Source of the DNA: Phoronis australis
Lineage: Eukaryota > Animalia > Phoronida
DNA: 64,000 nt
Reading direction: 5' to 3'
NCBI GenBank assembly: GCA_002633005.1
Contig: NMRA01000153.1
Coordinates: 495,557 to 559,556 of the forward strand
The notes below the pieces were generated by a model that worked only from the letters and a program-made list of their open reading frames with translations, was not told the origin of the DNA and did not search any database. This document shows, one piece after another, positions 6,625 to 62,510 of the stretch. Both the position numbers and the translations under genes were made by a program. Numbering within the stretch: position 1 is the stretch's first letter; each line of letters begins with the position of its first letter.

Positions 6625-6939
6625 AGAACAATGTGAGAGACCTTGTACTCCTTAGAAATCCAGTCTAATCAGACCAAGGCTCAAGCCAAGACCAATTTTA
6701 TAGTGGTATGGTAGAACCTCACCCATTTCGCACATGACAAAAATGATGGTTAAAATTGACTTTTTCAATTTTCAAGGGTTTCTAACCTTGTTATGATTGC
6801 TTACATGTTTTTCTCAAAATATTGAGTGGTGGTAGCAACAATATAGAACTTGCACTGAAATGCTTGCATCTAATGTTAAATGTCTTAAGGAAAAAGCAAA
6901 ATCAACCACACTGTGCCCTAATATGGCAAGATTTTAATG

Positions 6940-7636
6940 TAAGTGTCGTGGCTATTTCACTGCAAGTGCCGTGGCTATTTTACGGTAAGCGTCATGGCTA
7001 TTTTACGGTGTCGTGGCTATTTTACCACAAGTATTTTGGCTATTTCACTGTAAGTGCCATGGCTATGTTACCGTAAGTGTCGTGGCTATTTTACCGTAAG
7101 TGTCATAGCTATTTTACTGTGTCGTGGCGATTTTACTGTACGTGTCGTGGCTATTCAACTGTAGGTGTCATGACTATTTTACTGTACATGTCGTGGCTAT
7201 TTTACTGCACGTGTCGTGGCTATTTTAGTGCAGGTGTCATGGCTATTTTACTATACGTGTCATGGCTATTTTACTGTACTTGTCGTGACTATTTTACTGT
7301 AAGTGTCATAGCTATTTTACTGTGTCGTGGCCATTTTACTGTGTCATGGCTATTTAACTGTGTCGTGGCTATTTTACTGGACGTGTCGTGGCTATTTTAC
7401 TGTACGTGTCTATTTTACTGTACGTGTCATAGCTATTTTACGGGCTGTCGGGGCTATTTTACTGTACGTGTCGTGGCTATTTTACTGTATGTGTCATAGC
7501 TATTTTAATGTGTCATAGCTATTTTACTGTAAGTGTCATAGCTATTTTACTGTATGTGTCATAGCTATTTTAATGTGTCATAGCTATTTTACTGTAAGTG
7601 TCATAGCTATTTTACAGTAAGTGTCATGGCTATTTG
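6940..7636. repeat. Degenerate minisatellite of ~23 bp (GTGTCRTRGCTATTTTACTGTAM) with 19-bp variants, roughly 30 copies
   Basis: Recurrent GTGTCGTGGCTATTTTACTG units; these explain the repetitive ORFs at 7077-7518. Confidence 0.95.
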
Positions 7637-7649
7637 ACATGGAACATAT

Positions 7650-14032: not shown

Positions 14033-14406
14033 TCTGTGCAATTGGCATGGCCACATCCATTTTGACTCTGTGCAATTGGCATGGCCACATCCATTTTGAC
14101 TCTGTGCAATTGGCATGGCCACATCCATTTTGACTCTGTGCAATTGGCATGGCCACATCCATTTTGACTCTGTGCAATTGGCATGGCCACATCCATTTTG
14201 ACTCTGTGCAATTGGCATGGCCACATCCATTTTGACTCTGTGCAATTGGCATGGCCACATCCATTTTGACTCTGTGCAATTGGCATGGCCACATCCATTT
14301 TGACTCTGTGCAATTGGCATGGCCACATCCATTTTGACTCTGTGCAATTGGCATGGCCACATCCATTTTGACTCTGTGCAATTGGCATGGCCACATCCAT
14401 TTTGAC
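14033..14406. repeat. Perfect minisatellite, 11 x 34 bp (TCTGTGCAATTGGCATGGCCACATCCATTTTGAC)
   Basis: 374 bp equals 11 identical head-to-tail units. Confidence 0.98.
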
Positions 14407-17008
14407 GCTTGAACTTATCATTTAGATACTATGTTTCAGCCATGATCAGGGGGGTTTAACTTGCACTTGCACGGGTGCTTAGTGAGTGTAGTGCACCTCA
14501 GAGAAGAATCTAATAGAGCGGAATAAGAATAGATAGTGAAAAATTTACCGCAGGATAATCAAAGTCCGGCTGGCTAGCTACGTCCTGGATATAATCCACC
14601 CGAAACTGATTTCCTGGATTTTCTAGTGCTATGGGCGGATTGAGGGTGCTCATTGCACCCGTTATTGTCTGCAAGTAAAGTGAAACAAGATTAGTATCTC
14701 CAACAGAGAAAGGAATGCAAGAACAAAAGCAATGAAATTACAAGACACCCAAACTTCAACATCACAATAGCACTATTGTCAGGGGCTGGGGGTGAGTAAG
14801 ATAATGGTGTGACCTCCAACTCGGTAAAAGTGTTGATTTCACTATTCAGGGCAGCCTAAAAATAAAAAATATGGAGCCTTAAATCAGAGTTCATGAGAAT
14901 GAAAACCGCCAGTTTCACATTCACGTACAGCCAAAAAAAGTCATTTCACAGGTCGCATCCTCTTCATCACTGGCGTGTGCCTTATTCATAAACAGTAATC
15001 CAGGAACCCTAATCAAGAATCTACTACTAATCGCACATCATGGGCTTATCACCGAATACCAAAGCGCCCTTGCCCAAATTCCACAGGATTTACCCACAAT
15101 GCAATTACACATTGATTTCCAGTTAAACTAGTATTTTACAGAATAATGTTTCGACACTAATCACTCTAATGCCACAAAAGTTGTCACAAGCTGGATGGGA
15201 TGCAGTACATTGCTCTTGCCTTTTTAACTAGGTTGAGGGCCAAAGCTCTTGAAAACTAGGTCATCGTGCAAGGTGGTTTCCGCCTCGGTGAAACAGGATA
15301 GATTAACTTGGAAGGCACCTACCCCATCAAGGAAACATTTGACCATTAATTATAAGCTGCGCCCACCCCCACAACAGGATAACAGAATACAAGAGCTGCC
15401 TACCCTATTACACATTATAAAGTATTTGGTCATCCTTCATCCAGATGGCCAGGGTCTAATTTTATTACGGTAAATCTAACTCTTAATTATTTTTGAGACT
15501 TTTTGTTTAACATTAGTGGGAACAAAAGTTAAGCCAAAAAGCCTACACAGTAGTTGGTTCTTGTCTGCTTTTTCTGAAAACCAAGTCTGTGGTGTGGTAT
15601 TTTTTAGTTGCTCACCTTCTCTAAAACGGAAAATCCACCTGAGATGAGCCAAAGGGATAGAGGGAGTTTCAAACCTTGTTGACGTGCACTTTTATGGTTT
15701 TTAAAAAATAAAAAACACAAAACCTTGGGTGAAATTGATGCAAGGGACATTTCGTTTTTTTAGTTGGTGAGTGCAGGTCTCAAAATGAGTCAGGGAACTG
15801 ACCAAAACCAATTTTTCTTCTTTGGCCTTGTTGTCTATTGTTTTGTGCTCAAGTGTCCTATGGTTTAAGCAGATCAATGTCCAAATAAATCATATTTTGC
15901 ACTTGATGACCCCTGCATTATAGCTACAAAATTCCAGTTTTAACTCAAAATCTTGAGTTTTTACTTGAAATCTAGTTTGCAGCTTGAATCATGGGATCAC
16001 CAAATGTGATCTTGAATTAGACACTTATCTGTGAAAACCTTAGTATAGTAGAGCTCAGTGTAACGTAAAACATCAAAAATATTTTCCAAACCCGGAGATT
16101 AGACTCCATGCCCCAGGGAAGCTCTTCTATTTGTTGTTATTTATCTTTAAATGATGGCCAAAAACAAAAAGTGTTAGTCCCAAGTACAAGGTGTCTGGGT
16201 TTACAAGGGACTTTCTGGATTCGAACACAACACATTAGCTGCTTGTCAGGGTTCTGCTTTAAAAAATTAAAGAGGGTGGAAATTAACATATAAGGATGGA
16301 TGACCCCATCCCATTCGGGGTTTGGGGTATATCCCAAGAAAATTTAGACTGGAAAAAGTTAGTTCCTGCGTGTTGGTGAAATCTTCACTATCCCAAACAC
16401 AATATTTAGAGAAAGCCACGGTAAGTTTTGCACAGTACACAGCTGGATATTTAAGACTAGGTGGGTAAACAAATTTAAAGACGGTGGAAAAGAAGGTGGG
16501 ACAATTAAGTTGAGGCGTAATTAAAAAGGTGCAGTGCCCTGCAAGAACAATGCGTGGAGAAACCTGTTCACACAGGTACTTTTGCCATCACAGGTATGCT
16601 GTCTAGATACTCAGCTGGAGGACGCAAGAAATACCAGAGGCAAGTTGCCATCTGGACAAATCTTTGATCAATTTCTACGGTGCATACTTGTATTGAGCAT
16701 GGCTTCGGCTGGTAAAAATTATCAACTTCAGAGTAAAATAAAATAAGAATGAAATGGTTTAATAAGCCAATACTAGCTAAATTCCAAACACAGCATGACT
16801 ACACACAAAACAAGTGTCAACCTCATTGCATCCCTGCATCTAAGTGAAACGGGATGTCCACAACTAATATAGAACTATATTTTTGTTCAGAAATTTTGAC
16901 AAAGTCAAAACTCCCTTTCTTGCGATATTGTCCCCCAGACTGATGAACTGAAGGGTTGATACCATTTTCACCTTGCGGATATTAATTACCTATTCAAAAA
17001 GTAAAAAT

Positions 17009-27100: not shown

Positions 27101-29509
27101 ACCTCCTGCAGTGCAGGCACTATCGGGTTACATCATTTCCCAGACTCCATGCAAACTGATTAGGATTTGCTGGTTAAGCCCACTGTGCCTTTGACAGCTC
27201 CCAGGCTACCACTAACCAATTCCACTTCTTTCCTAGTCCTCAATAGCATGTCACAGAAACAATATCTGACAGACAATAAGTTTCAAATCCATGTTTGCAG
27301 GATAGTCTTCAGAATGGGATCCCAAAAAGGTTGAAATACACTGTGTCGTAATCCCAGTCAAAATGTGTAAATCAAGGCCTAAGAGGTGAACGGTTTTAAT
27401 ATTCCAGCAACAGTAAGCAATCATTATGGAAGAACAAATGGAGGGCAATAACCACAGGATAATCAATACTTTATTTAACAAGTGCTCACAGCCAGGAATT
27501 GAGGAGAGGTCGGGCTGAAGGTAATGAGACAGCCTCGTAGGATGATACCGTCTTGAGTGACCCCCAGAGAAAACGTGACAGATTCAGAAAAGGAGCACTC
27601 AGACAGGTGATCATAAACAACTCCCGTGTCATTCTTTGACCAGAGACTGACCAATGACCAATATTGCCTTCAAGATGTACTGATCAACAAAACTCCACAA
27701 TTAGTGACTAGCTGTGGTCACGGATGAGTGGGCAGCAAGCTTTTGATGTGCTTTATCTACACAACAATGAAGGTTGTCAAGAACCTGGTAACAACCAATT
27801 TATGCAAGGATGCATAATAGTAATGGTGTGAATAGGGAATCAATGAGTTGAGTTTATAGATCTCTCTTCAGTAATGGATGTTGTTAACAAAAACAAGTAG
27901 ATAGGATCTGATCAACCATTGGCAATGTTTTCACTAGGCTTTGCCAGAGTGGGAGTGCAACCATGCTGAATTTTTTCTAAATATCGACTTTGGCTACGAG
28001 TCAGAATTTCACAACTGATGACAAGTTTCCAAATTGCTAAAATTCCACCATCTGCGCATGACTAGGTATCTGGGATGAGAAACAGCCAATGAGTCAAAAC
28101 ACATTGAAAAAGATCCCAAACCCACTATCCAAATTAGTTAAAAAAATAGTTTCCCAAATACCGCTAAAGATCGCTTAGTTGCCATGTAGAATGGTGCAAC
28201 AATTTTCAGTTCTAGAATGAGGCACAAGTTCAGATTGAACAACATACTCACAATATGTTGTGCTTTCTACCATGTCCTATTTTCACATTCACGGCCAGAA
28301 TTCAAATACGGAACATCTTCCAAACAATGCCATAACCAAGTTCTCTTATATTTTATGATCCTTGGCTAACCACTTTCCTTCTGGAGTTCCAACGGTAAAA
28401 AAAAATGTATTTAACATTTACTGAGGCATTTTCTTGAATTTTCAAGAATTTCAGAGAGGTCTTTTACTTGCCTGAAGCATTTCATTGTACACAAGGGTGT
28501 AGTCAGGTTCTAAAGAAATACATAGTAGCATCTCCATCAAATGCAAGCCCCTCAGAAGTTTTGAAGCCAATGGCCCCCAAAAAGTTGTCTCAACATTTCT
28601 ATTCTTATGCTGCGTGTAGATCACAGGAAAATCCTAATTACCAAGTGTCATTAAATTATTAATCACAGAAAAACTATGCAAATCTTTTAATACAACTACG
28701 GTAATGTTGTCCCACCATCTGTGGAATATCTGCTTCATTTCTAGCATAAATTATGTTGATTTGATAATTAATGCGGTATGGTATCAACTCTGAAATACTC
28801 TACAAAAACTGAACGATCGACACAAGTCACGGTACTTAAAAACAAATGTAAAAGATTGACAAAAATAGCAGCAGCGGTATGCTCTAAACTTATAGGTACA
28901 ATTTCAAGTTGCCAACATTTTTTAACGTAAAAGCAAGCCTATTTGAAGGGACCATTAAATACAAATCCTGAACATTCTCTGGACAAATTTCAACATTAAT
29001 AACTGTCTGACCCTAATTAATTAAGCACAAACAGTAGTGAAGTGATGTAAAGTAACATGTTTGCCCAATGTAAGTAGACACAGATACAAGATGCAGGCCT
29101 CTGGCACAGTCCTTCACATGTCTTATCTAACATTGCATACATAGTTACACAAGGCCAAGACAACAGCCCATAAAATGTCACAAATTTAGGACACAATATG
29201 GCTGACGAGTAAAATTTTTTCAATTTTTTTCAAAATGATAAATAGCACCCAATTAATGCTTTAAAAGTTTCAAGTTTTTTACCATAGCTTCTGTCAGATG
29301 CTTTGTACAATTTGTGGACATTTCCAACAACGTATGCTTTTCCCCTAATGCCCTTCTATACTACCATTTACTTTGTTCAGATAAGTGACTACATTGTCAG
29401 CATCATTAAACCTTCCTTTATAGCACAGCACATCATAACCGTGAATTCAACAACCCAAAAACGAGAAAACAGAAGAACGGAGAAAGTTTCTTAGCTGGAC
29501 AGACATGAA

Positions 29510-29920
29510 AGCGACGTATGAACGTAACCAGCAGTAGTGTGTCATCAACACTATGAGTTTTTTATGCCATATCCGCACTTCTCTGACATCAGAGCCAAAG
29601 CATGGTCAAATACTGAGTTGTCACAACCACCACAAACGCGATGCATCGACATCCTTCATTGCACCATAAACCACGGGAAAGCAAGCAGCAATATCCGACG
29701 ACTTTTCACACTAAACACAAAGGAGGATGACTACTGCCTCGATTGGTGATTCCGACTCTACGTAGTAAGCATCAACCAATAAATGCTCGTAATTCGAAAT
29801 CTTGTAATTAACACATCGTCAGCTGGTGTTTGCAGGTGTTCTAATTTGACAGCTGATCGACTGCTAAGTTTGTTTTTTGGTATTTTTGATACAAAATTGA
29901 GCATTTTAAGACTATTGAAT
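29510..29920. repeat. Dispersed repeat; diverged second copy at ~57890-58310 in an ARPC3 intron
   Basis: Colinear shared blocks: GACGTATGAA, CATATCCGCACTT, TCAAATACTGAGTTGTCA, ACCAATAAAT, ATCGTCAG, TGTTCTAATT.GACAG.TGATC. Confidence 0.8.
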
Positions 29921-30883
29921 GTATGTGAAAGTTTTAACCATAGTCCTTTTAGTGACTCCTCGGGTTTTTCTTCCCTTTCTTTTCAGGCCCAACATGTGTT
30001 TATGTGTTCAATAAATTTGTGTCATTCAAAATCATTCACTTCAGCTCCGTTTGATTTTGTATTTGACGCGATTTTGAGTAATTACTAGCGTGGTGATCTG
30101 AATAACATAGCCTAACTTTTCCTCGTAGAAAATGGCCCATTTGTTAAAAAATAAGGGACTGTCCAAGTGATCCTGGTTCTCCTAAATTTGAAATGTCACA
30201 TTTTACAACAGCCCCAAAATAACCAGACAAAACAAAGAGCTTTAGCTCAAAAAAATTGTTATCAACTGTGAAAAATAAAGAACTAGAGAAACATTCTTGG
30301 AAAGGTCTCACCACACTAAAACACTGATGACCTAATCTTGATAACACTTGTGAAAACATTAATTTGTGTAGTGGACACCTTAGATTTCTGAAAATTTCAC
30401 AAAGGCTAACATGACAACTTTCATAACATTTTATTCATAACAGACTTGAGAAAAAATTCTGTATCAAGATTATTGTAATATTTTTCTGGACATTGAGTAA
30501 TTAGCTCAAAAGTGTGTTGGCTTAAGTATGGTTGTCTTAATTTCGCAAAGACATTTAGCAGAAAGAAAGGTTTCTTGGCTTTGAAAAAAGCAAACAATAT
30601 CATGTGAGTCCGCTACAGAATAGATTCCACATTGAACACTACAAAAGAGTTATCCGACAAGTAGTTTATGCAGGAAATAGTCGGATGGGTCACCGATTTG
30701 AGAACCTCCCACATAATAATGCCCATTAATCAGTGGTAGTAACTGGTTCTCAAATAAATTTTAAATAAGGGAACAACCTATCTGACTATTAGTCTAATTT
30801 TGTGGCAACTAATATCATGAAACATTTTAACTTGCAGTCTTGCAGTTGGAGAAAAACAACACTACTACCACAACTATACTTAC

Positions 30884-30956
30884 TCTTGCCCAAAGCCATC
30901 CACATGCAATATTTTCATCTGCTTCACTATAGTGGATTTTCCAGATTCTCCAGCGC
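30884..30956 (-). CDS. GNAS: G-protein alpha-s subunit, exon 2 (P-loop; [G][24 protein letters not shown])
   Basis: 73-nt exon bounded by TTTCAAG and GTAAGT; encodes the G1 box GAGESGKST; same length and phase as vertebrate GNAS exon 2. Confidence 0.95.
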
Positions 30957-31101
30957 CTTGAAATGAGAAGAGCAAAACTGTGTAAACATGGTAAACAGAG
31001 ACAGGGAAAACAGTTATTTGAAAAACAGTCATCATTCTTTTTCATGAGGAACGAATAGAAAGAAAGTTCAACCGGCAATAAAAAACAGACTGACCACCTA
31101 C

Positions 31102-31231
31102 CTAATAATAGTAACCTATGTGTTGCCCTATATAACTGTTTATCTTTTTGTAATTGTTTTTCAATCCTCTTGTTAGCCTCTCGTCTTTTCCTATCTTCCT
31201 CAGTTTCTTTGGGTTTTGTGAAGCAGCCCAT
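31102..31231 (-). CDS. GNAS: G-protein alpha-s subunit, proximal first coding exon ([44 protein letters not shown])
   Basis: The MGC start and [25 protein letters not shown] are diagnostic of the Gs class; 130 nt, phase-1 GTAGGT donor, 145-nt intron to exon 2. Confidence 0.95.
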
Positions 31232-31486
31232 GTTTTTGAGGTAAGACAGACACCACAGGTGTTGAATGAGCGGGTAATTTCCCGCGCCGACAACAAGTTT
31301 CCCTCCTGAAAATTCTCGGACAGGCTACAATAGAGATCTAAAACGTTGATATTGTATAATCCAATGTTAGCTGGGCTTGACAATCCCCGCAAAAGACCAG
31401 TTTTCCCGAGGTAACTTCATCAAAACGGAAACGATCTCAGCTCTCGGCAACCATTACACATCAACTTGACAGCCTGGGTGGGGTTA

Positions 31487-34272: not shown

Positions 34273-34554
34273 TCAGGTCACCATCCAGTGGGAACAACAT
34301 TTGTATTTCATTGAGGTCGGCATAACAGTGCACACCGTGCACTTGCACCAAGACAACCCACCACGTCTGTCCTCAGTATCTGCCTCATCCCTCTCAACAA
34401 CTGTCTGCGCATATTCTGCCTCAATATACTTGGGCTCAAACATATATCCATTCACTGACTGTTCGTGAGAAAATTCCTCCTCACCACTGCTATGAACAAT
34501 GTCTCCGTCACTCACGTCACTGTGTCTGTGATATGGGTTTCCGACTCCAGTCAT
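34273..34554 (-). pseudogene. Truncated KolX-like / P2X7 ballast-like Cys-rich protein
   Basis: Acidic N-terminus, GYMFEP motif, then WCKCTVCTVMPT.....CC, matching the WCxCxxCxxMPTxxxxxCC pattern. Confidence 0.7.
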
Positions 34555-35732
34555 TTTCAGGCTACTACAAACTAAAAGATTCGTGAATCCTTCGTAAATG
34601 AATTCTCTAACAATCTAGGTTGTCGTAGAATACTCGTCGATGGCAAGTTGTGACAATTTTAGGACACCAACACAAAAACAACAGTAGAACAGATCTTCAC
34701 AGTAAACTCGAACGCACTAGAAACAAAATGGCGGGAAATTCTTAACCCCTTAAACGTCACTTCCGTAGTAGTGCATGACTAATTAATAAAATTACAGAGA
34801 GACGTAATTAAAACATATGTCTGGGATAATCAACGAACCGTATTTTTTACTAAAAATGACATGAAAAAAGTTTGCCCTCCCCTTTAAGAATCGTTCATCC
34901 AAGTCTTTTCTAGATTTTGCCTTAGTAGTCTTGAACGGTTCTCGCATGAACGCAAAAAATGTCGTAACTATAAATTTTATTCACTCAAATTTAATAAATT
35001 TTGCAGAAAAAAAGAAAATATTTCGAAAAATCCATAAGACTCACATGAACGGTTTCCGCCACAGCCTCCGGAGATCACAGGTGCATTGTCTAGTTTGAGA
35101 CTGCCACAACTATGGTCTATTTTCACGAGTGGACATGAGCCGACAAAAACATATGTAACGTTTTTCGTAAGGGTTATCGGAATTGCTTCTTGTAAGACAA
35201 AATGTCGATTCATGCGTCGGCAACAAAGGTGGCAACCGAGCAGGAAATCTTTTTCTGACGACCTCAGCGAAGGGAAGAAACATGGTGGCATCAGAAGAGG
35301 GCGAAAATTGTCACAACAGCCATGCACACATCCCGATACATTCACATTTCTGTGGGCGTGTTCTAGGATTTCATTGCAAAAAATCCCAGGTTCGTAGTTG
35401 GTCAAGTAATGGCAACCTACAAATGCAGCCATACTAACATAAATAAATTTGGTTTTCGTAATGTTTCTTTTTTGTTAACAATCTAAAAATAGGTGAAAAA
35501 TATATTATTTACGAAGAATTAGGGCCCACGCTCGTTCGATTCAATATTTGTTATTTTCCGTACGGCTTTATAACGTCAATTGGTCAAAATCACATTCCTT
35601 GTTAATGCTAATTTATATTAATTCAGTTCAAGCTCTGTCCGATCCCACCGAGGTGAGTTCTCGAGAAATTTGACACCACTAGCTGAATGGATTCGAACCG
35701 ACTACGTAAACAATACGAGTAACAACCGAATG

Positions 35733-43464: not shown

Positions 43465-43663
43465 TTGAAATCGAGCTGGGGATGTATACACCTGACTCAG
43501 GCGTCTAGCTGTGTGCCCCAGTGGGAATCGAACTGGGGATCGAGCTGGGGATGTATACACCTGACTCAGGCGTCTAGCTGTGTGCCCCAGTGGGACTCGA
43601 ACCCACTACCTTGTCGGAGCAAGGGAAACAGAGGCTTATCCCACTAGGCCACACTGCCTCCTC
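43465..43663 (-). mobile_element. tRNA-derived SINE with a tandemly duplicated (~69-bp period) body
   Basis: Minus strand has A box TGGCCTAGTGG and B box GGTTCGAGTCC without a convincing cloverleaf; the body is repeated at 43471-43533 and 43540-43602. Confidence 0.7.
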
Positions 43664-44763: not shown

Positions 44764-45660
44764 AAAGTGTACGCAACATGACTCTAGTACCTCAAAATAA
44801 ATGTTATTATTATATCTTACTTGATTTCAGTGCCTTTAGTGCACAGCTCATAAAGAAACACGTAAAAATTGAAGAAAAAATTATGTACAACGTCATGGGT
44901 TGAACCCAAGTCGTTCGGCACACTGTTCGGGTCAGCAACTAAGTGTATAGAGTGAAGTGAAAGTAAAATATATTTAGCGTCGAGAAGGTTCGCAGAGGGA
45001 TGAAAAGATGTGTTTGCGGAGGCTGCAGCAACAACAGTCAGACGGAGAACGTCTCGGTGTTCCGAAGGACGCCAAAGTTGCGCAGTAGTGGCATCGCTTC
45101 GTGCGCCGAACGAGAGTGTGGGACCTCAGCGTGGACCAAGCGATTCTGTCCGGGGCCACTCCGTGCTCTGCCCACTTTGAGGAGTCGTGTTCAATATTTA
45201 CTATTCAGAAACATCGGCTCGTTGTTGGATGACTGGGTTGACTGGCAGAGCCCGAAGCCGCTTCTCTCGCGGGAGGATCCAGTTCGTAAGGCCTCAAAGT
45301 AGAAAAGTACGTAGCTGAAAACATATCAAACTCGTTCTCGCTTTCGTGCAACCCCATTTCGTCATCCTGGCCACCATTCTCGTACGTTTCTTCATAGTAT
45401 TTGTTCATTTGTTGCTCATAATCGTTGTCGCTTTCAAATTCCCTACTCTCCACCGTTGTTCAATGCTAGTCGCTGATCTCTTGTGTTCAACCCATGATGT
45501 CACATGGCGGAAAATGTGAAAATTGGCAAAATTGAAAGAGAAATCAAAATTTCGAGCTAATGACACAAAATAATCATGGATTTGGCTAAATTTTACGTCA
45601 TACATTTAGTCTGTGGCCACCGGTAATTCGAAATGTGCAAAAATCCATGGTGTGTACTGT
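44764..45660. mobile_element. Second, distinct internally deleted Kolobok-type element (897 bp)
   Basis: TTAA on both flanks; short imperfect TIR (AAAGT[GT]ACGCAACATG vs ACAGTACACACCATG); THAP remnant on + and a convergent acidic ORF with LRPYELDP on - (45453-45205). Confidence 0.7.
45000..45195 (+). pseudogene. Disrupted THAP domain
   Basis: MKRCVCGGCSN...VSVF / frameshift / KDAKVAQ*WHRFVRRTR...CSAHFEESC retains the C2CH signature with one frameshift and one stop. Confidence 0.85.
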
Positions 45661-48885: not shown

Positions 48886-49932
<1,047 letters not shown>

Positions 49933-52455: not shown

Positions 52456-55400
52456 TTACTGGCCAGGCGCTGACAGACTTTTGTCCATAAACTTTCTCTT
52501 GGCAAAGCACATCCACCACTGAAAAAAGGGAGAGTTTCATTGAGTGAAAATGGCTTCTAAATGTCAAGAAGCCCTGTAATGCGTAGCCAACCTATTTCAC
52601 GTGACTTTCAAAATAGGAGATTTGAAACTTGTTTGGCCGAGTTTTCTCATTTATAGACCAACCACGGAGGTGAAATGTGAACAGATATTTGTTGTTTTAC
52701 ACTTAATGCTCTTTAAACGTGTGCCTAACCAGATTGAAAAATGAATCATTCTCCATTTTGAAAGCAACATTACTGAGTTTTGGTTGGTCATACTTTGTTA
52801 AGAAACACTTCCAAGTGGAACTCAAAAGACTACAAAATTACTGGAGTTCCGGATTCAGCAGTGTCGATTTCCTAAACATGCAAATACATTGAGGCTTGCC
52901 AGAAAAAATAACAAATGCACCCATCATGTCCATCGTAAATGGTAAATATATAAAGGGTGCTATTTTTCAAACGTGTCCACACACTAGTGAACAAAACTAG
53001 TGAACTTGAAAGTGAGTCTATGGGATGCAGTGGTAGTCACCAGATAACTGGCGAATACAATCCTGGTAGATGTTGAGATTGATACTCTAAGACAAATAAA
53101 ATTACAACTATGAAACTATAGAAACACATTCATCAACTTTGATCTAATTCTTCAAACCACTGAACAGATAAATGAAAGTCCGATAACAAAAATTACAAAA
53201 ACAAACACCAAGTTTACTAAAATTGCCACTAGGAGTGAAGAACATGTTGGAGCTTGGCAAATATATAGGTGGGTAAATCCTCTCTTTCATAGAAACATGT
53301 CAACCAAATGTCGCGAAGATCCTTCAAGTGGTTTGGTAAAGAAAAGGGCAGACGGTGAATACCTGAATGTGATGACACACACACACAGATATTTATGTGG
53401 ATGAAAAACTTTTGATGTAAAAATTTTATGATAAAAGGATTAAGTTAAAAAAGAAGATTTGCAGGTTTTTGTACTAAGCAAAAGTATGTTGTATGTTCTG
53501 GCATTGTCGTCACATGTGACTCAAAAGGCAACATGGAAAGAACGCAGGTGTGTTTTTATTGAAAACAACTGCTATTCTGTCTCTTACTAAACCACGATCA
53601 AAGAAAATTAGAACTGCTAAGGGCTTATAATGGGAGAACATGGGCATATACAGGGATATACTAAGCCACTCGCTCAGCCACCAATGCAAGTAAAAACTGC
53701 AGATGTACACTGTCGTTCCCCAGTTTTTTCCAGAGTTCAAATGAATAAAAGTCTCTTCCCCGTGATATTTTTATCCTGAATTTAAGGTTAATTTTGGTCT
53801 GTGTTTTGCTGCTCAAGCAGTAAAAAACATTGATGTGGCAAACTCACCAATACATGTGACAGTATTGGCGGATATCTTTACCATCTTCCCTGTTTAGCTG
53901 CCCAGTATAATTTTGTGACAGTATTGGCGGATATCTTTACCATCTACCCTGTTTAGCTGCCCAGTATAATTTTGTGACAGTATTGGCGGATATCTTTACC
54001 ATCTTCCCTGTTTAGCTGCCCAGTATAATTTTGTTTCTAATGGGTCCGCATCAGTCAGAACAATTTTTTCCAATTGAGTCTGAAAAATCTATGACATCGA
54101 GGACTGAAGACCCGGGGAGTGGAAAATTGGCAGTGGTGTAAAGGTGTTGTGGGGGGGGGTCTGCAAAGAGAAGAATAAATGTTCGCAAACTACAATTTTG
54201 CGCCAGTGAGTTGCAATAGCTGGCTAAGGGCATGGAACATAGGACCTAGAAAACATCGAGCCGGGGAAACATCAAAACAGGAGATTATCGGGTCTGAAGA
54301 ACATTAGGTGCTGGAAACATCGCAAAGCATCGGAACTAAGTTCATTGTCAAATAAACACCCAGGTGCTTAACAGAGCCAAGCCAATTTTACTCTTTTATT
54401 CAGGACTGTCGCCGTTCTCTTTTGACGTGCAACTTTGGAGTGGTGTTCAGGCTTGAAGTCCCACACTTGAATTGTGGGGTATATGTTACTTTGCCAGCAA
54501 CATGTGAGTGACAGATGACTCATGCACATGTGAGCGTCAGCCTGGCCAGAAGCAAGGGCTCGGGAGTTTCTTCACTACTCGAAACCACTCTGTTGAAAGA
54601 CAAGTCGTGGCCGTTGTTTGGTCACTTACACGATGTCCTGTGCCATAAAAAATGAGACTCGCGTTGAAACAGGTTGTTAATTGTACTTGACGGCATTTCC
54701 TAGTCACAATCGTCTGCCAGAACATTGCGTGCAAACAGCGACATTGTTGGGCATAGCTCACAAGAAAAATAAATACGTTTTCCCACCACAATGTTTGGTA
54801 AATTGATCGTTTAAGAATTAGTATGAACATGGCTGCTTTAAGATGTTTAATCACGGGTTTAATACTTAGTTGGCTGTGAGTGGAACAATGGATAGCAATC
54901 AAAAATCATTTTCCTATAGCGAGCTCTTTTTGTGGAACTCTCTCCCTGCAGATGCCAAATCTACATCCTCCTTTCTAACCTTTAAAAGAATTATAAGAAA
55001 TAGATTTAACTTCATGTAGTATCTAAGAATTGCATGTTTATTCATTTGTTATTTATATAATGTCTTACTTTTATTAATTATTTATTGTCTGTTTTAATTT
55101 TTTATATTTATATTTATTTTTAGTTAATTATCTTGTCTTAATTTCTTTATCTTCTATTTATCATATTTTATTTTTTATTTTGCTTCATCAGTCTTTCCGT
55201 GTTAATTTCTTATTCTTTGCTTATTACTTAAATTTGTCTTTCATTTTGTAATTCTGTTTTTGTCTTACTATCTGTTTGTTTTTTCTGAGGGCCCCCATGG
55301 AAAGCAGTGTGAACTGATGGGGCTACCCTCATTGTAAATATTACATTAATTAATGAGTGGTCTTGCATCATTTCGGCCAGCTTCAATTATTTGATTCATT

Positions 55401-58400
55401 TAACTTACAAGTTGCAGCAGTTCACAGTGCTCATCATTTTACCTTGGATGGCTTCTGAGTTTCAGGGTCAAATACTTTTTCACAAACTCTCAACCCTGTT
55501 TCTTGACGTAACTGTAGCAAATAAGCCTTCATGTTTTCTGTAAAACAATTGAAAAATGAAAATTTGAGAACAGGTCATACTGCTGCAAAGCAACTTGAGG
55601 TATCCCACACAGGTTAAACAATAATCAAAATGAGAAGCGATCCTTGGCAAAATCATATAAGAATTTAAGTTGAAGTCGACAACGAAGCCAAGAACATCAA
55701 CAACCATGACTCTGATGCCTATTACACCGAATGTATTAAGGGTTGCGCAAAGGATCACAGAGCAAACACAATTCGAAAAATGGCTGCCACAGTGCCATCT
55801 TGCATCCGATTTCGCCCCAAAACAAAAGTCCTTGCGTTATTGATGAAATAAACTTTGTACTTAAATTTCATGCTGATCAGACAAAAAAATGTGATCTCTA
55901 GTACAAATACAATAGGCTAATAAAGAGCAGCTATAAAAAACTAGTCAATAAAAGAAACCATCTACAAAGCAGTAAAAATCTTGAATATTGCGAGAATGGT
56001 AAGTCGTAGCGAGAAATCGATTCCACAATGCTAATACTGCTTGAAAAGATCTACCCACAGATCCATCAAGGGATGCCAAAGATATAGCACAAAAACTCAA
56101 TAAATTGGAGACCGGTCCCCAGAAAATCTCAATTAACTCTAGAACAGTAAGACAAAGAGAAAAATAAATGGCACACTTACAATAGCTCTTGAAATAATCT
56201 ATCAACAGAAAAAAATTAATAAATATCCCACCTGAAACAGCAAAGCTATGGCTTTGCAAACCAAAAACTGAAAAATGGCCATCTATTCACTTACAGGGGC
56301 CCTGCAGCTTGATAACCAGGTTTCTCCACAGAATACCGGACATCAAACTTGTTTTTAAAATCCAGGACCCTCTGTAAGTGACTATTGCCTGTAATATGTT
56401 GTTATTGGTCTATTTTTACCAGTTTCGTTCCTAGACTGAGGTTTGGCATAGAGTGCATTGAGTGGGAAGCCATCCTCTCCAGGAATAGGATAGTTGGTAA
56501 GGGCTAGCGTATGCATCTCCTTCAGACCTTGACCTTTGGTTTGACACTGTGAATATAACAATGGAGGTCAACAATGCATAGCAAGGAAATAATAATGGAA
56601 AATGGCAACAATCACATGGACTTCGTGACTCACGCTCCAATATAAGTTTGTACCACAACAATGCCAATTAATATTCATATGTGCACATTTTCTTTTCATA
56701 AAATTCACTCCTTTGTACGGTTTATGTAGATCGTATCTCAGAAATGCCTTATTGGATAGAAAACTTTCCGATACCATGCTTTATGCACTGTCCAAAAACT
56801 GTAAGGAATTGTTTTCCACTTTTGCATGAGGGGCTATTAAAAATAGGATTTCTATGATTTTCAGAAAAAAAATTAAAAGTTGCATAAAACGAAAACGAAA
56901 CGACGATTCAAAAAACTGGAACATTGTTTTTGAGATATCACCTTGAACATATAAACTGAACAAAATTTCTTCACGCTGTTTTGTTATGGATATACCTTTG
57001 TTTTTGCTTATTTCATAAAGACGTGGTCACATGACCCAATTAATAGGAGACTGGTATAAAGTCAAAAATCAAATTACACAGGCTTTTTACTTTTAGAAAA
57101 TATGTGCTTTTACAAATCTAGTTTTGTAAATATTTGGCTAAATACATCGACAAGTCGATGAGGTCCTTGATAACCTTAACTAAACAGATATATACAATAA
57201 GAGGCAATAGTCAGATATAACGTGCCTGCATTTTGCGAACCAGTTTGATACCTGTTATTCAGTGGAGAAAACTGGATCTCAAAATGCCGGCACATCATAT
57301 TCAACCATTAAATAGTAGGATACCTCTGATAGCTTTTCTCATCGATACTTTAACTAGCCATTCGGATCCTGCATCCTTCTAGGGACAAAAATGTTGCCAT
57401 TGTTCGTCTATTTGAAACAGTGACATAGCTATCGGCAGAGGATAATGGTGCTGCCTCTCCTGCCAACATTCGGTAGCCACTGATTTTGTGCCACCTCCAG
57501 TCATGCATGCCAATCTCTCCCGATAGGTGTGGCACCTCCCTCTAGCTATGCCAATGATCTGTACTGCCAGTGATATCAATTTTATAACGTCAGGATTCCA
57601 GACACGGTCTCTTACCTTCTGCAGCTTTTTAAGACATTCACTGACGTAGAGAGTTACATAGATAAGAGTCCTGTCAGCTTCAGTCTGCAAACACAAGGCA
57701 AATTGTTAAGCTCAATATTAAAGCAGTTAAAGCCATATTTACCATGTTTTGAAAAGTGACAACATTGTCAGCATCATTAACCATTTTTTGAGCACTGCAT
57801 ACCACAGATGTGCATTCAATATCCCAGAAACAAGAAAATAGAAGAACAATGACTTCTAATGGAAAGTTTAATAGCTCAACAGACACGATTGTGACGTATG
57901 AATGTACCCAGCACTAGTGCGTTACATCCACCAACATATGTGTCATATCCGCACTTGTCTGACGTAGTGTGGAAAGTGAAAAGAGCCACGTCATGCTCAA
58001 ATACTGAGTTGTCAAAACCACCGCAAATGCAATGCCAAGTCATTCTTTACTATACCACAAACCAATAGATAATGAGAAGCAACAAATGACGACATTTTAC
58101 ATTAAAAACAATGGAGGAAGATTAATGCTGTGATTGGCTGTCCCAGTTTTAAGTAGTATGCTTTGACCAATAAATAGTTAGAACTCGAGATCAGCTAACT
58201 AACAGATCGTCAGATAGTGTTTGTGGATGTTCTAATTCGACAGTTGATCAACTGGTTGGGATTTTTTGGTGGTTTTGATATGAATTTTGTGATTTTAAGT
58301 ACTTTAAATAACGGCTGTACTGCATATTCAGACCTAAAAATTTGGACAAGAGGTTGAGTTGTTTAGTATGATAATGACTCTATTCTGCCACAGTTCTTAA

Positions 58401-61400
58401 ATGGATAGGTGATGACAATGAAATTGTTCCACTTGTCATGGATTGAACCGACCAGCAACTTGAACCAATGCTCTTGACTTTTAATGACAATCTCACAAAT
58501 GCCTTTATCTCTGTAATCATTCTGTAATTCCCATAAAAAACAAAAAAGACAAAAATTCCATGTATAGTTGCCATTATCATTTTACGAAACGATTATATGC
58601 AAGATTAAGGTTATGCAGGAAAAATATCCAAATATGACTAACTTCGGAACATCCCATCTCAGAAATGGCTGTTTGGATTCATATGAAACTTTCTATACGC
58701 TGTTAGGAATTGTTTTAAAACTTTTCTGCCTCAGCATGAGGGACTTTTTAAGATTTTAATGAAAAATCAAGTCATATAAAATGAAAGCGAAACTACAACT
58801 TAGAAATGTCTATAAGATTTTATCTTGAATGTTTATATCAAATGAAAATGGGTCACGTTATTGAAACCTTTGTTTTCCTATGTACCTTCTTTTTTGTTAA
58901 ATTTTACTAAAAACACACGGTCACATGACCCAATTAATGGTAGATTGATATGTAGTCAAAAATCAAATTCTACAGGTTTATGAGTTAAGGTCATTTGTAG
59001 ATACTTGGCTAATTACACACACAGGTGTTAATAAAGTCTTACATAACCTTACATAACTTTGATGGTCTCACCTTGATTTCAAAATTTCTGAAGAATACGT
59101 TGGCTTTGAAGTAATGCAAAGTTTCATCAATCACATCATAATCAGAATCTAAAAATATGAATATATACAAAATGAAATATTTACAAAAATCTTTGTAATG
59201 TAAGAGTAGTACTGCAATCAATACATGAAGAAAAACTGGATCAACTTTAGTATCGTATTCAAATTTGTAATTTTTCTGAAAATTAGACACAAAGCAAAGA
59301 ACAAGATTGTAAGTTTTGAGCAAATGATACTGTGGAAAAAACAAAGTTCTTTGAAAATTCAAAAATCCTTCCTTAAGGATTTGACATTGTTTGCCTTGGT
59401 TTTTGGGCTGAATATTGGCCTTATTCCCAATAAAAAATACTAAAAACCCATATGGAACTTTCTCATCAGGCTCAAATATTCCCTCCAATGATTAAAAAAT
59501 TCCCTTCAAAATTAGAATCACTCCTTCAAAATGTTAGTTTAGGCTACTTGAGTCAATTGGTTATGAGAAGGTGGAATTCATGGTGATCAGAGGAAGAAGA
59601 TTTCCTCTCAACCATAAAATCCCCTATCAAAAGGCACAAGCACCTTCCCTCCCAAGTGAGGGAATGCCCTGATTATCCTCTAAAGGTGTGATTCGCCACC
59701 CACAGTACACATGAAGATAATTCTGTACAGTTTAACACAAGTTAGATATTAACAAAGAAGTATCAGCATATTTAAGCAAATACAACACCATGACCTATTA
59801 CAGGTTTGGAATATTCATTTTTCATTTAGCTTCAGATACATACCTGTTGAAGGACCTGGTCCTTTGTACTTTGTCCTCAGTGGAAGTAATGCCATGTTTC
59901 CAACAAACAACTGGCTAGACAGCTGTGAGTGATAGGCCTGCAAAACGATAAGGATACCCTTACATCAAGGAAGTTGGTGATGCATTTTTGGTAATGTTTT
60001 GTTAGGTACAATAGACTTCTTGAAGTCATTAGATTTGACCAAAACAATGAAACAGCAAATCCTGCTGATTTTGTGATTTTATTATGAATCCTCACTAAAT
60101 TCAACAGAATGAAATGAAATTGAATTTTTGAGGAGAAAACTTCTCACTCTGTAGACCACCATTAAAAATGCGTGGATCATAAATTAGCTTGTACATGGTG
60201 CAGTAAGGCAGTTACTAGATTACTACTTAGACTACTGTAAATGGCTATGATCTATTGTGGCTTATGACTGGTCATGAAAAAGACGATAAGTAATTTAGCA
60301 ACAAAGACTGAACACAGAGTGGTCTCCTCATCGGTTTTGTCTTTTATATTCCACGTTGATGCCACACCTTTATAAGCTCATTCTTTGTGTACACTGTGCT
60401 GGGGCTAGTTCATAGTAACTACACAATACTGGGACCTACAGACTACACGCTGTTGTAGATGTGCTTCCGGGGAATCATATGAGCCTCTGCTAGCTACTCG
60501 TTAACGGGCAATTGCCTATTAGCTGAATGGTTAGCACGCTTGCCGGTTTTATGGGGGTCGCTGGTTTGATTCCCGGGTCGGGTAATCTCGGCTATTACTA
60601 CAAAATGGCGTAGTCGGAAAACGAATGATCTACCGATGAAGCACTGCCAACTAGTACCCGCGGACATCAGGACGGCGTGCATGGAAGGTTCCAGGAGTCA
60701 AGGACCTGTATGAGAGACTACCTTATGTTCACCAGTGTTGTGATGGTAAAGGTACAAGGGACGTTGATGACCTGTATGGCTGTATGCGAGACATCCTGGT
60801 GTTCACCTTCCTGGTCGCGTGCCCGTTCCGTAGGGAAGGGGGGAATGTTGTAGACGTGCTTCCGGNTGGGGGTCGCTGGTTTGATTCCCGGGTCGGGTAA
60901 TTTCAGCTATTACTACAAAATGGCGTAGTCGGAAAACGAATGATCTACTGATGAAGCACTGCCAACTAGTACCCGCGGACATCAGGACGGCGTGCATGGA
61001 AGGTTCCAGGAGTCAAGGACCTGTATGAGAGACTACCTTATGTTCACCAGTGTTGTGATGGTAAAGGTACAAGGGACGTTGATGACCTGTATGGCTGTAT
61101 GCGAGACATCCTGGTGTTCACCTTCCTGGTCGCGTGCCCGTTCCGTAGGGAAGGGGGGAATGTTGTAGACGTGCTTCCGGTGAATTATATGAGCCTCTGT
61201 TAGCTACTCGCTAACGGGCAATTGCCTATTAGCTGAATGGTTAGCACGCTTGCCAGTTTTGGGGGTCGCTGGTTCGATCCCCAGGTCGGGTAATCTCGGC
61301 TATTACTACAATACACTTGTCTTGTTACAGTGAAATCTCACCAATTTAGGATACAGTAAGGCGGTTTTATTGCCCACTAGAAGTTGAAGTTAATTTATTC

Positions 61401-61595
61401 CAATCCTTAAATGTCTATGAGAAGTAGTTGTAGTTATCGTTGTCAGTGACAGTGAGGCAGTGGGCGGATGCCTGAGGCGAGCCCATGTCTGTGGGCCAGG
61501 GCTAGGCCAGGAGACGAACAGAAATTAATGTAAAATCCATGAAAGCACAACATAAAGGTCTACATTATCTTAATTAGGTGAATACTTACTGGCAT
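52456..61595 (-). CDS. ARPC3: Actin-related protein 2/3 complex subunit 3 (p21-Arc), 176 aa, 7 coding exons
   Basis: Exons 61595-61590 (MP), 59937-59844 ([21 protein letters not shown]), 59148-59072 ([22 protein letters not shown]), 57684-57616 ([23 protein letters not shown]), 56546-56420 (..[17 protein letters not shown]..), 55537-55443 (..[16 protein letters not shown]) and 52518-52456 ([20 protein letters not shown]). All introns are GT-AG, phases are compatible, and the total is 531 nt. Confidence 0.97.
53855..54034. repeat. Tandem repeat, 3 x 59 bp
   Basis: TGTGACAGTATTGGCGGATATCTTTACCATCTTCCCTGTTTAGCTGCCCAGTATAATTT occurs three times with one substitution. Confidence 0.95.
54903..55355 (+). 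mobile_element. 5'-truncated CR1/L2-group LINE: ORF2 C-terminus plus 3' UTR
   Basis: 54903-55019 translates [31 protein letters not shown], the WNSLP...FK end typical of CR1/L2 ORF2; then a T-rich UTR and a terminal GAGGG.CCCCAT...ATGGGG..CCCTC stem-loop. Confidence 0.8.
60451..61310 (+). mobile_element. Tandem-array TRIM (LTR-int-LTR-int-LTR) with tRNA-like LTRs, inside ARPC3 intron 1
   Basis: LTRs TGTTGTA...TACTACA at 60451-60602, 60846-60917 (broken at the N at 60866) and 61161-61310; two 243-bp internal regions, each starting AAA-TGGCGTAGTCGG (PBS) and ending AGGGAAGGGGGGAA (PPT). Confidence 0.92.
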
Positions 61596-61994: not shown

Positions 61995-62073
61995 ACCCCC
62001 TCGACCCACGACCCCCTCGACCCACGGCCCCCTCGACCCACGGCCCCCTCGACCCACAACCCCCTTGACCCAA
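61995..62073. repeat. Tandem repeat, ~5 x 16 bp (ACCCCCTCGACCCACG)
   Basis: Visible directly; possibly the subterminal array of a transposon. Confidence 0.85.
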
Positions 62074-62510
62074 AACCTGGTTCGTTTGGTCAGGTTATCA
62101 ACTTACCTTTGACTTCGGCTTCGCTGGGTCTGTACAGCTGTACAAACTGGCATAACTAGCAGCAGACATCCACACGTTTCAAACGCACCATAAACAAGGC
62201 GTATGTAATCGAACCTGGAACAACGCACCTTTTCTGAGAAAAACGTCAGGCGGACGTCCGAAGCACCGAAAACAGGCTGATGCTCCTTTCGTCCCATAGC
62301 AGCACAGGAATGCTGACGATGGACAGGAATGCCGAACCATTTTTCAGTTTGGTGGATCAGACTGCCACTACAGCTGGCCGGGGAAAGTTGGCATGCGAGC
62401 TTCCACATGCTCTGTCTGCATGAGACCCCTGTTGTGCGGAGCCAGAGAGTACACTAATGTGTTCGTCCGCTGTAACTACTCAAACTTCAAATTAATTTGT
62501 TACATCAAGA

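What the first reader, a model, noticed from the sequence alone, without database searches (positions are those of the whole stretch)
60451..61310. Tandem mini LTR-retrotransposon whose LTR contains a tRNA-like Pol III promoter and which is primed by tRNA-Ser
Seen: three ~150-bp LTRs alternate with two almost identical 243-bp non-coding interiors. Each interior starts with TGGCGTAGTCGG and ends in a polypurine tract abutting the next LTR. The complete LTRs contain an A box (TAGCTGAATGG, in a GCT/AGC D-stem-like hairpin) and a B box (GGTTCGATCCC in LTR3), with a degenerate anticodon arm. Established: TGGCGTAGTCGG is complementary to the 3' end (CCGACTACGCCA) of animal tRNA-Ser. TRIMs with small-RNA-derived LTRs are rare: Cassandra and Helenus carry 5S sequence, and, as I recall, Ajax from a phoronid carries tRNA-like sequence. 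Inference: this is a SINE/LTR hybrid transcribed by Pol III and mobilised by an autonomous LTR partner, either Ajax-like or a new family. The near-identical interiors suggest recent activity. I found no clean TSD.
Basis: partly seen in the sequence, partly recalled or inferred. Interest (0 to 1): 0.75.

Follow-up and report, generated by a model that had tools for sequence, protein, structure and literature searches.

The report
Helenus mini-retrotransposon with palindromic LTR signal
This is an aged copy of a tiny, gene-less, high-copy jumping element whose end repeats carry tRNA-type promoter motifs, a kind described in 2024 as Helenus; its apparent doubling may be an assembly error, and a self-complementary word just ahead of the promoter, shared with many published relatives, would possibly pair two copies of its RNA for packaging.

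Summary
Real element, known kind. Two full LTRs (152 and 150 bp, TG..CA), a 243-bp non-coding interior, a 12-nt tRNA-Ser primer site, a polypurine tract and A/B boxes are present. Reads show a dispersed high-copy family with exactly these ends. None of my motif searches or by-eye reading matched a published family, so it is likely a new family. The scan noted Helenus in other genomes before.

Corrections: the middle 'LTR' is 20+51 bases around a single N, joining two 314-bp stretches that are 99% identical. The tandem may be a false duplication (about 55%) and is no sign of recent activity; the outer LTRs are 93% identical and there is no clean TSD. The copy lies antisense in intron 1 of ARPC3.

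New point: a loop-less palindrome sits directly 5' of the A box, where the Pol III transcript would start. By eye, about 50 of 76 published non-insect animal Helenus LTRs have one, with varying sequence. An RNA-dimerisation role is inferred, not tested.

The parts
60451..60602 (+). 5' LTR (152 bp, TGTTG...CTACA)
   Evidence: Repeat alignment; loose read ends pile up before 60451 and behind 60602
60506..60517 (+). Self-complementary word GGGCAATTGCCT (10 Watson-Crick positions, 12 with one G.U) in the 5' LTR; predicted 5' end of a Pol III transcript (inferred)
60520..60530 (+). Pol III A box in the 5' LTR
60547..60550 (+). T4 run between A and B boxes; one of only two T4 runs on the + strand of the element
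60563..60573 (+). B box of the 5' LTR, non-canonical in this copy (GGTTTGATTCC); most family reads have C at 60567
   Evidence: 79 of 86 and 76 of 89 reads in X5
60603..60845 (+). Interior 1 (243 bp, no long reading frame)
60606..60617 (+). Primer-binding site complementary to the 3' end of tRNA-Ser (12 of 12; 14 nt in most family reads)
60832..60845 (+). Polypurine tract 1
60846..60917 (+). Incomplete middle LTR: first 20 bases, a single N at 60866, last 51 bases; possible assembly join
60918..61160 (+). Interior 2 (243 bp; 1 difference from interior 1; primer site 60921-60932, polypurine tract 61147-61160); may be the same interior assembled twice
61161..61310 (+). 3' LTR (150 bp)
61199..61215 (+). 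6-bp hairpin GTTAGC-N5-GCTAAC just upstream of the palindrome; both arms match the majority of family reads
   Evidence: rows 60490, 60501
61216..61227 (+). Self-complementary word in the 3' LTR, identical to that in the 5' LTR
61223..61296 (+). tRNA-like segment: A box 61230-61240, T4 61257-61260, B box 61271-61281; not a functional tRNA
   Evidence: ARAGORN finds nothing at default or 80-90% threshold, 'possible pseudogene' at 70%; no Rfam tRNA hit
59937..61588 (-). Host context: first coding intron of ARPC3 (GT..AG on the minus strand); the element lies antisense inside it
   Evidence: 169 and 91 spliced reads join 59936 to 61589; Pfam P21-Arc on two exons

Best explanation
This is an aged copy of a Helenus-type miniature LTR retrotransposon from a dispersed high-copy family, likely transcribed by RNA polymerase III from the tRNA-like A and B boxes in its LTR, likely primed by host tRNA-Ser, and likely copied and inserted by the proteins of an unidentified Gypsy element. 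Shown: LTR-primer site-interior-purine tract-LTR anatomy, A/B boxes, many insertion sites sharing these ends, no coding capacity. Inferred steps: (1) Pol III would start about 14 bases before the A box, at the palindrome; (2) it would read through the weak T4 in the 5' LTR and the T4-free interior and stop at the T4 of the 3' LTR, giving a terminal repeat of about 45 bases, or run on into the flank; (3) the palindrome would let two RNAs pair for packaging; (4) tRNA-Ser and the purine tract would prime the two DNA strands. The doubled interior at this locus is either two haplotypes joined at a gap or a later local duplication, not two insertions.
For: Anatomy. A+B boxes: 0 of 20,000 shuffles; the B box is canonical in most family reads (row 60567). 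Primer site: 12 of 12 with a human tRNA-Ser template printed in PMC3299991, 14 nt in most reads (row 60618). Dispersal: loose ends pile before 60451/61161 (17+32 contigs in X1, 18+34 in X3) and behind 60602 (26 in each), with flank agreement of only 0.37-0.42; single short contigs reach about 190 times flank depth in the LTR and about 60 times in the interior (depth is only a rough guide). Class definition, size range 311-1263 bp, tRNA-Ser priming in 5 bivalve families, Gypsy link and tandem arrays: PMC10886601. Palindrome: 0.16% per centre in the window, predicted homodimer favoured by 9-11 kcal/mol.
Against: No clean TSD: 4-mers ACGC/ATAC differ at 2 of 4, 6-mers at 2 of 6, and no other copy with both flanks could be read. 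In two RNA runs 64% and 69% of laid reads run on into unrelated sequence, both strands are covered and no start or end pile lies in the element, so no discrete Pol III transcript is seen; the library selection is unspecified. The T4 in the 5' LTR could stop Pol III early. The host's own tRNA-Ser and any Gypsy partner could not be looked for (no genome held). The 5' LTR B box of this copy is non-canonical.
Confidence: 0.85

Rival explanations
1. The locus holds one element (LTR-interior-LTR, 545 bp); the second interior is a false duplication, two haplotypes or two gap extensions placed end to end around a single N.
For: The 314 bases before the N recur as the 314 bases after it with 3 differences, and one N stands where about 80 bases would be missing. 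Gaps between duplicated pairs are a listed mark of false duplications (PMC9516828, passages). In run X3 the window's own letters at three interior sites reach depth 34-41 summed over both interiors, against 46-59 on the flanks, never double (weak).
Against: Any gap inside a real middle LTR gives the same end-to-end pattern. All 3 Ns in the window are single, so N runs may have been collapsed. Contigs over 60537-60589 reach about twice flank depth in X1 and X2. X1 depths at the interior sites are inconsistent (0-27 against 4-9).
Confidence: 0.55
2. The tandem is real and arose after insertion by unequal crossing-over between the 3' LTR of one chromatid and the 5' LTR of another, giving a chimeric middle LTR.
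For: The middle LTR's 5' piece matches LTR3 and its 3' piece is closer to LTR1, as this model predicts. Tandem TRIMs are common: LTR-11_DR, biv-TRIM (PMC6934838, passages), Cassandra (PMC7215508, passages).
Against: The same pattern follows from an allelic overlap. The join is a single N. No contig bridges the middle LTR (a hole proves nothing).
Confidence: 0.45
3. The A/B boxes are relics of a tRNA-derived SINE that once inserted in the LTR; the element is now transcribed only passively or by Pol II, and the boxes no longer drive it.
For: RNA reads are mostly embedded in other transcripts, on both strands, with no start pile. Kojima states that Helenus promoter activity is not validated.
Against: The A-box region is the most uniform part of the LTR among contigs at 98% likeness, and the B box is canonical in about 95% of DNA depth, while the anticodon arm is not kept.
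Confidence: 0.15
4. The element is a retrozyme-like unit with a self-cleaving ribozyme in the LTR or interior, as other reports of this scan propose for some Helenus-like elements.
For: Lead only (e1-10599781, e1-10588737). The LTR folds somewhat better than shuffles (z -2.4 to -2.6).
Against: Rfam finds no ribozyme at E up to 10 over 60300-61500 or over LTR3 alone. CTGATGA occurs in interior 2 only, and I saw no hammerhead, twister or HDV layout by eye.
Confidence: 0.04

Closest known systems
Helenus (tRNA-type TRIMp3), Kojima 2024, PMC10886601. Read: whole main text (parts 1-6) and supplement parts 1, 5, 6, 7, 9, 10, 11 of 11; parts 2-4 and 8 only through motif searches.
   Same: Short non-coding LTR element, TG..CA ends, A box (TRGCY..YGG) and B box (GGTTC) in the LTR, tRNA 3'-end primer site, purine tract, non-functional tRNA-like segment, 545-bp unit within the 311-1263 bp range.
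   Different: No listed family has a 152-bp LTR with a 243-bp interior (Table S1); the primer motif has 0 hits in the supplement; TSD not seen here; host not identified as any listed species.
tRNA-Ser-primed mytilid families Helenus-2_MyGa, Helenus-2_MoPh, Helenus-2_LimFor, and Helenus-2/3_PiNo of Pinna (same paper)
   Same: By eye: mytilid LTRs 141-156 bp with interiors 226-268 bp, tRNA-Ser priming, hairpin plus palindrome before the A box; Helenus-2_MyGa begins with the same 10 bases; the PiNo families resemble it at the interior start and in the upstream hairpin.
   Different: Different primer-site sequence, different palindrome core, no long shared stretch seen; no alignment was computed.
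Cassandra and Ajax (5S-type TRIMp3)
   Same: Pol III promoter inside the LTR; Cassandra starts in the 5' LTR and ends in the 3' LTR (as summarised in PMC10886601); tandem arrays (PMC7215508, passages).
   Different: They carry 5S boxes A/IE/C, not tRNA A/B boxes; Ajax is nemertean, tRNA-Leu-primed, with 5-bp TSDs.
Ty1 PAL1/PAL2 dimerisation palindromes (PMC6844567, abstract only)
   Same: Self-complementary words near the RNA 5' end of an LTR retrotransposon.
   Different: Ty1 is an autonomous Pol II-transcribed Copia-type element with mutational proof; here the role is only inferred.

Membership tests
Helenus (TRIMp3) | Two LTRs with TG..CA ends around a short non-coding interior, unit about 300-1300 bp | tested here: met
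   152+243+150 bp; ends fixed by loose-end piles; no long reading frame
Helenus (TRIMp3) | tRNA-derived segment with A and B boxes inside the LTR | tested here: met
   A box 61230, B box 61271; 0 of 20,000 shuffles; ARAGORN pseudogene at 70% threshold
Helenus (TRIMp3) | Primer-binding site complementary to a tRNA 3' end just after the 5' LTR | tested here: met
   12 of 12 with a human tRNA-Ser template; host tRNA not available
Helenus (TRIMp3) | Polypurine tract before the 3' LTR | tested here: met
   14 purines abutting the LTR
Helenus (TRIMp3) | Interspersed multi-copy family | tested here: met
   Dozens of contigs with unlike flanks at both LTR ends
Helenus (TRIMp3) | 4-bp target-site duplication (animal families) | tested here: inconclusive
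   This copy: ACGC against ATAC, 2 of 4 differ; 6-mers differ by 2 transitions; paired flanks of other copies not obtainable
Helenus (TRIMp3) | Transcription by Pol III (proposed, not validated, for the class) | not testable with these tools
   RNA runs show no start pile in the element; library not designed for it
Helenus (TRIMp3) | Gypsy partner sharing the primer site | not testable with these tools
   No genome held; none noted in earlier findings for this genome
Ajax / Cassandra | 5S rRNA-derived segment in the LTR | tested here: not met
   No Rfam 5S hit at E up to 10; tRNA-type boxes instead
Retrozyme | Ribozyme in the LTR | tested here: not met
   No Rfam ribozyme hit at E up to 10; divergent folds not excluded
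Functional tRNA gene | Full cloverleaf | tested here: not met
   ARAGORN 0 genes in the window; only a pseudogene call at relaxed threshold, with different anticodons in the two LTRs

The most novel reading that the evidence does not exclude
Animal Helenus elements carry an undescribed RNA dimerisation signal: a hairpin followed by a loop-less 8-12 base palindrome placed at the very 5' end of the Pol III transcript, kept from invertebrates to fishes through compensatory changes and G.U pairs. It would let these SINE-like RNAs form the dimer that Gypsy particles package, and explain how they are mobilised without sharing LTR sequence with their helper.
Probability: 0.35. Interest if true: 0.55.

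Novelty: new member of a known kind. Interest (0 to 1): 0.33.

Why it matters
As a locus it is ordinary: one more family of a class described in 2024, which this scan has noted in other genomes (46 notes in at least 13 genomes hold my search words). It also warns that a 'tandem' around a single N is not evidence of activity. The part worth following is the palindrome ahead of the A box. How a non-autonomous element with unrelated LTRs is recognised by its helper is stated as unknown in the Helenus paper. A sequence-variable but always self-complementary word gives a direct test of that question.

Tried and rejected
Whole-genome search for copies, TSDs, host tRNA-Ser and a Gypsy partner: no genome held. 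Metagenome scans: a 27-base LTR-primer junction gave 0 loci; a 19-base A-box pattern gave 2 loci whose match ends at 21-27 bases with no other part of the element, so chance. Rfam: only noise hits, E 4-6. Run search: no RNA holder listed; uninformative. Laying four DNA runs at 98% likeness did not settle the tandem: no contig bridges the middle LTR and 60880-60921 has no cover in 4 of 4 runs, but contigs drop variants. Host placement: an RNF113A tree of 40 rows (39 picked from the 120 listed hits) puts the window near Owenia with weak support; phylum unresolved. Exact-motif searches of the Helenus supplement with 10 motifs from this element found no matching family. A hexamer count in the supplement was too unspecific to use. 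Earlier findings by sequence: none. Ajax identity, functional tRNA, hammerhead/twister/HDV ribozyme and recent transposition were considered and rejected as above.

Full report
What is in the sequence. Two complete LTRs lie at 60451-60602 and 61161-61310; they differ at 9 bases and one 2-base indel. Each 243-bp interior starts AAA-TGGCGTAGTCGG and ends in 14 purines that abut the next LTR; the two interiors differ at one base and have no long reading frame. The middle LTR is not complete: 20 bases, a single N at 60866, then the last 51 bases. The 314 bases before the N recur as the 314 bases after it, with 3 differences. The other two Ns in the window sit at the ends of homopolymer runs and have no such overlap.

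The tRNA-like part is real but is not a tRNA. LTR3 has an A box at 61230 and a B box 41 bases later; this pairing arose in 0 of 20,000 dinucleotide shuffles of LTR3 and at one other place in the 64-kb window (the box patterns are recalled consensus). ARAGORN finds nothing at default settings or at 80-90% thresholds, and calls both LTRs possible pseudogenes at 70%, with different anticodons. Rfam gives no tRNA, 5S or ribozyme hit at E up to 10. The primer site matches 12 of 12 bases of a human tRNA-Ser template printed in PMC3299991 (one passage read); most family reads carry C at 60618, which extends the match to 14. The host's own tRNA could not be checked because no genome is held.

It is a dispersed family. 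Four DNA runs of one sample hold 62-69% of the words of the stretch. Laid at 85% likeness, contigs stop matching exactly at the LTR ends: 17 and 32 before 60451 and 61161 in X1, 18 and 34 in X3, 26 behind 60602 in each, with flank agreement of 0.37-0.42, meaning many different insertion sites. Single short contigs reach about 190 times flank depth in the LTR (X2, 683 against 3.2-3.8) and about 60 times in the interior (X3, 3057 against 46). The tool warns that depth is no copy number, so I read this only as tens to hundreds of copies or more. This copy departs from most reads at many sites, among them the B box of LTR1 (row 60567) and an 8-base stretch at 60772 that many RNA reads lack (15 of 20 and 12 of 17). 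With LTRs 93% identical and no clean TSD (4-mers differ at 2 of 4, 6-mers at 2 of 6), it is an aged copy.

Context. The element lies antisense in the first coding intron of ARPC3: 169 and 91 RNA reads join 59936 to 61589, and Pfam P21-Arc matches two exons. The host is an invertebrate animal, probably a lophotrochozoan. RNF113A is 70% identical to Owenia and 64% to Lingula anatina; a tree of 39 chosen hits does not resolve the phylum. I therefore do not claim a new phylum record.

The tandem is unresolved. The middle LTR's 5' piece matches LTR3 and its 3' piece is closer to LTR1. Both an allelic overlap at a gap and a real unequal crossover give this. For an artefact: one N where about 80 bases are missing; a gap between duplicated pairs is a listed mark of false duplications (PMC9516828, passages); in X3 the window's own letters at three interior sites reach depth 34-41 summed over both interiors, against 46-59 on the flanks. 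Against: N runs may have been collapsed; contigs over 60537-60589 reach about twice flank depth in X1 and X2; X1 values at the interior sites are erratic; tandem TRIMs are common. I put the artefact at about 55%. Either way the matching interiors do not show recent transposition.

Comparison with what is known. I read the whole main text of Kojima 2024 (PMC10886601) and supplement parts 1, 5-7 and 9-11 of 11. Helenus is the tRNA type, known from six animal phyla, with 4-bp TSDs in animals, Gypsy as likely helper, tRNA-Ser priming in five bivalve families and tandem arrays in zebrafish. Ajax is the 5S type from two nemerteans. This element meets every Helenus feature I could test; the TSD is inconclusive. 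Ten motifs from it found no matching family in the supplement, and no Table S1 row has its lengths. By eye the nearest anatomy is the tRNA-Ser-primed mytilid Helenus-2 group and the Pinna families; I computed no alignment with them. A search for later papers returned no other description of Helenus families among the 3 listed (listing only). Other windows of this scan have reported Helenus, including a double copy and a likely annelid case.

The new observation. Directly 5' of the A box both full LTRs carry GGGCAATTGCCT, self-complementary over 10 Watson-Crick positions and 12 with one G.U. Such 10-mers occur at 102 of 63,980 centres in the window, and a homodimer is predicted to be favoured over two monomers by 9-11 kcal/mol. 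A 6-bp hairpin precedes it, and both arms match the majority of reads. Reading the 76 non-insect animal Helenus LTRs in supplement parts 5-7 by eye, about 50 have a self-complementary word of 8 or more bases (G.T allowed) ending within 5 bases of the A box: 13 of 14 teleost, 4 of 4 coelacanth and sturgeon-group, 30 of 51 bivalve, 2 of 3 Lingula, 1 of 3 nemertean, 0 of 1 ctenophore. The window background would give roughly 11% (1.9% per centre over about six positions). The core varies widely (GTTAAC, AATATT, CTGCAG, CCATGG, AGATCT, AGTACT, GATATC, ACATGT, and CAATTG here), and G.T pairs are frequent, which points to RNA pairing. Caveats: the count is manual, the families are related, I set the criterion after seeing the pattern, and a third of the families lack the word. 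The paper's main text has 0 hits for palindrome, hairpin or dimer; a library search for TRIM, non-autonomous LTR, palindrome and dimerization found 0 papers; earlier findings gave 0. Its figures are not visible to me. Palindromes near the RNA 5' end drive Ty1 dimerisation (PMC6844567, abstract).

Most likely mechanism. From general knowledge of tRNA-type promoters (recalled), Pol III would start 12-20 bases before the A box, that is at the palindrome. The only T4 runs on the element's strand lie between the boxes in LTR1 and LTR3. A transcript that passes the first and stops at the second would have a terminal repeat of about 45 bases, much as described for Cassandra. It would dimerise, be packaged by a Gypsy helper, and be primed by tRNA-Ser and the purine tract. 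All these steps are inferred. The two RNA runs laid show reads on both strands, 64% and 69% of them running on into other sequence, and no start or end pile within the element, so they give no support for a discrete transcript; their library selection is unspecified.

Verdict. A new family of a known kind, interest 0.33. The class assignment is firm (0.85), the tandem is doubtful, and the palindrome is a testable lead (0.35).

Noticed in passing
window 43470-43660, minus strand: A tRNA-derived SINE-like head with A box and B box 48 bases apart, followed by a 64-base near-perfect direct duplication.
   Followed up: no
window 48886-49932, + strand: Intronless, intact RNF113A reading frame (CCCH and RING zinc fingers).
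   Followed up: partly
window 30827-31324, minus strand: A reading frame that includes MGCF...ATHRLLLLG, which I recall as the first coding exon of G-protein alpha s; Pfam gave no hit on this frame, so the name is recalled only.
   Followed up: partly
window 29366-29910 and 57737-58299: Two copies of a 570-bp interspersed repeat, 70% identical.
   Followed up: no
window 60011-60060 and 61326-61362: Two short pieces of other high-copy repeats in the same ARPC3 intron, seen as depth peaks with their own loose ends.
   Followed up: no
window 34273-34614, minus strand; 44967-45302, + strand: Fragments that may come from DNA transposons: a weak P2RX7_C match (E 0.01) and a Cys-rich frame that looked THAP-like by eye but had no such Pfam hit.
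   Followed up: partly
window 6930-7640, 14033-14409, 2248-2424, 53855-54034, 61996-62075: Tandem repeat arrays; units of 68 bp at 14033, 58-59 bp at 2248 and 53855, 16 bp at 61996.
   Followed up: no
RNA runs X5 and X6 laid on window 60512, 61161, 61308: Other copies of this family sit inside well-expressed transcripts: 19-28 reads share one identical flank at 60512 and at 61308.
   Followed up: no
window 13292 and 62548: The two other single Ns lie at the ends of poly-A and poly-G runs, with no duplicated flanks.
   Followed up: yes
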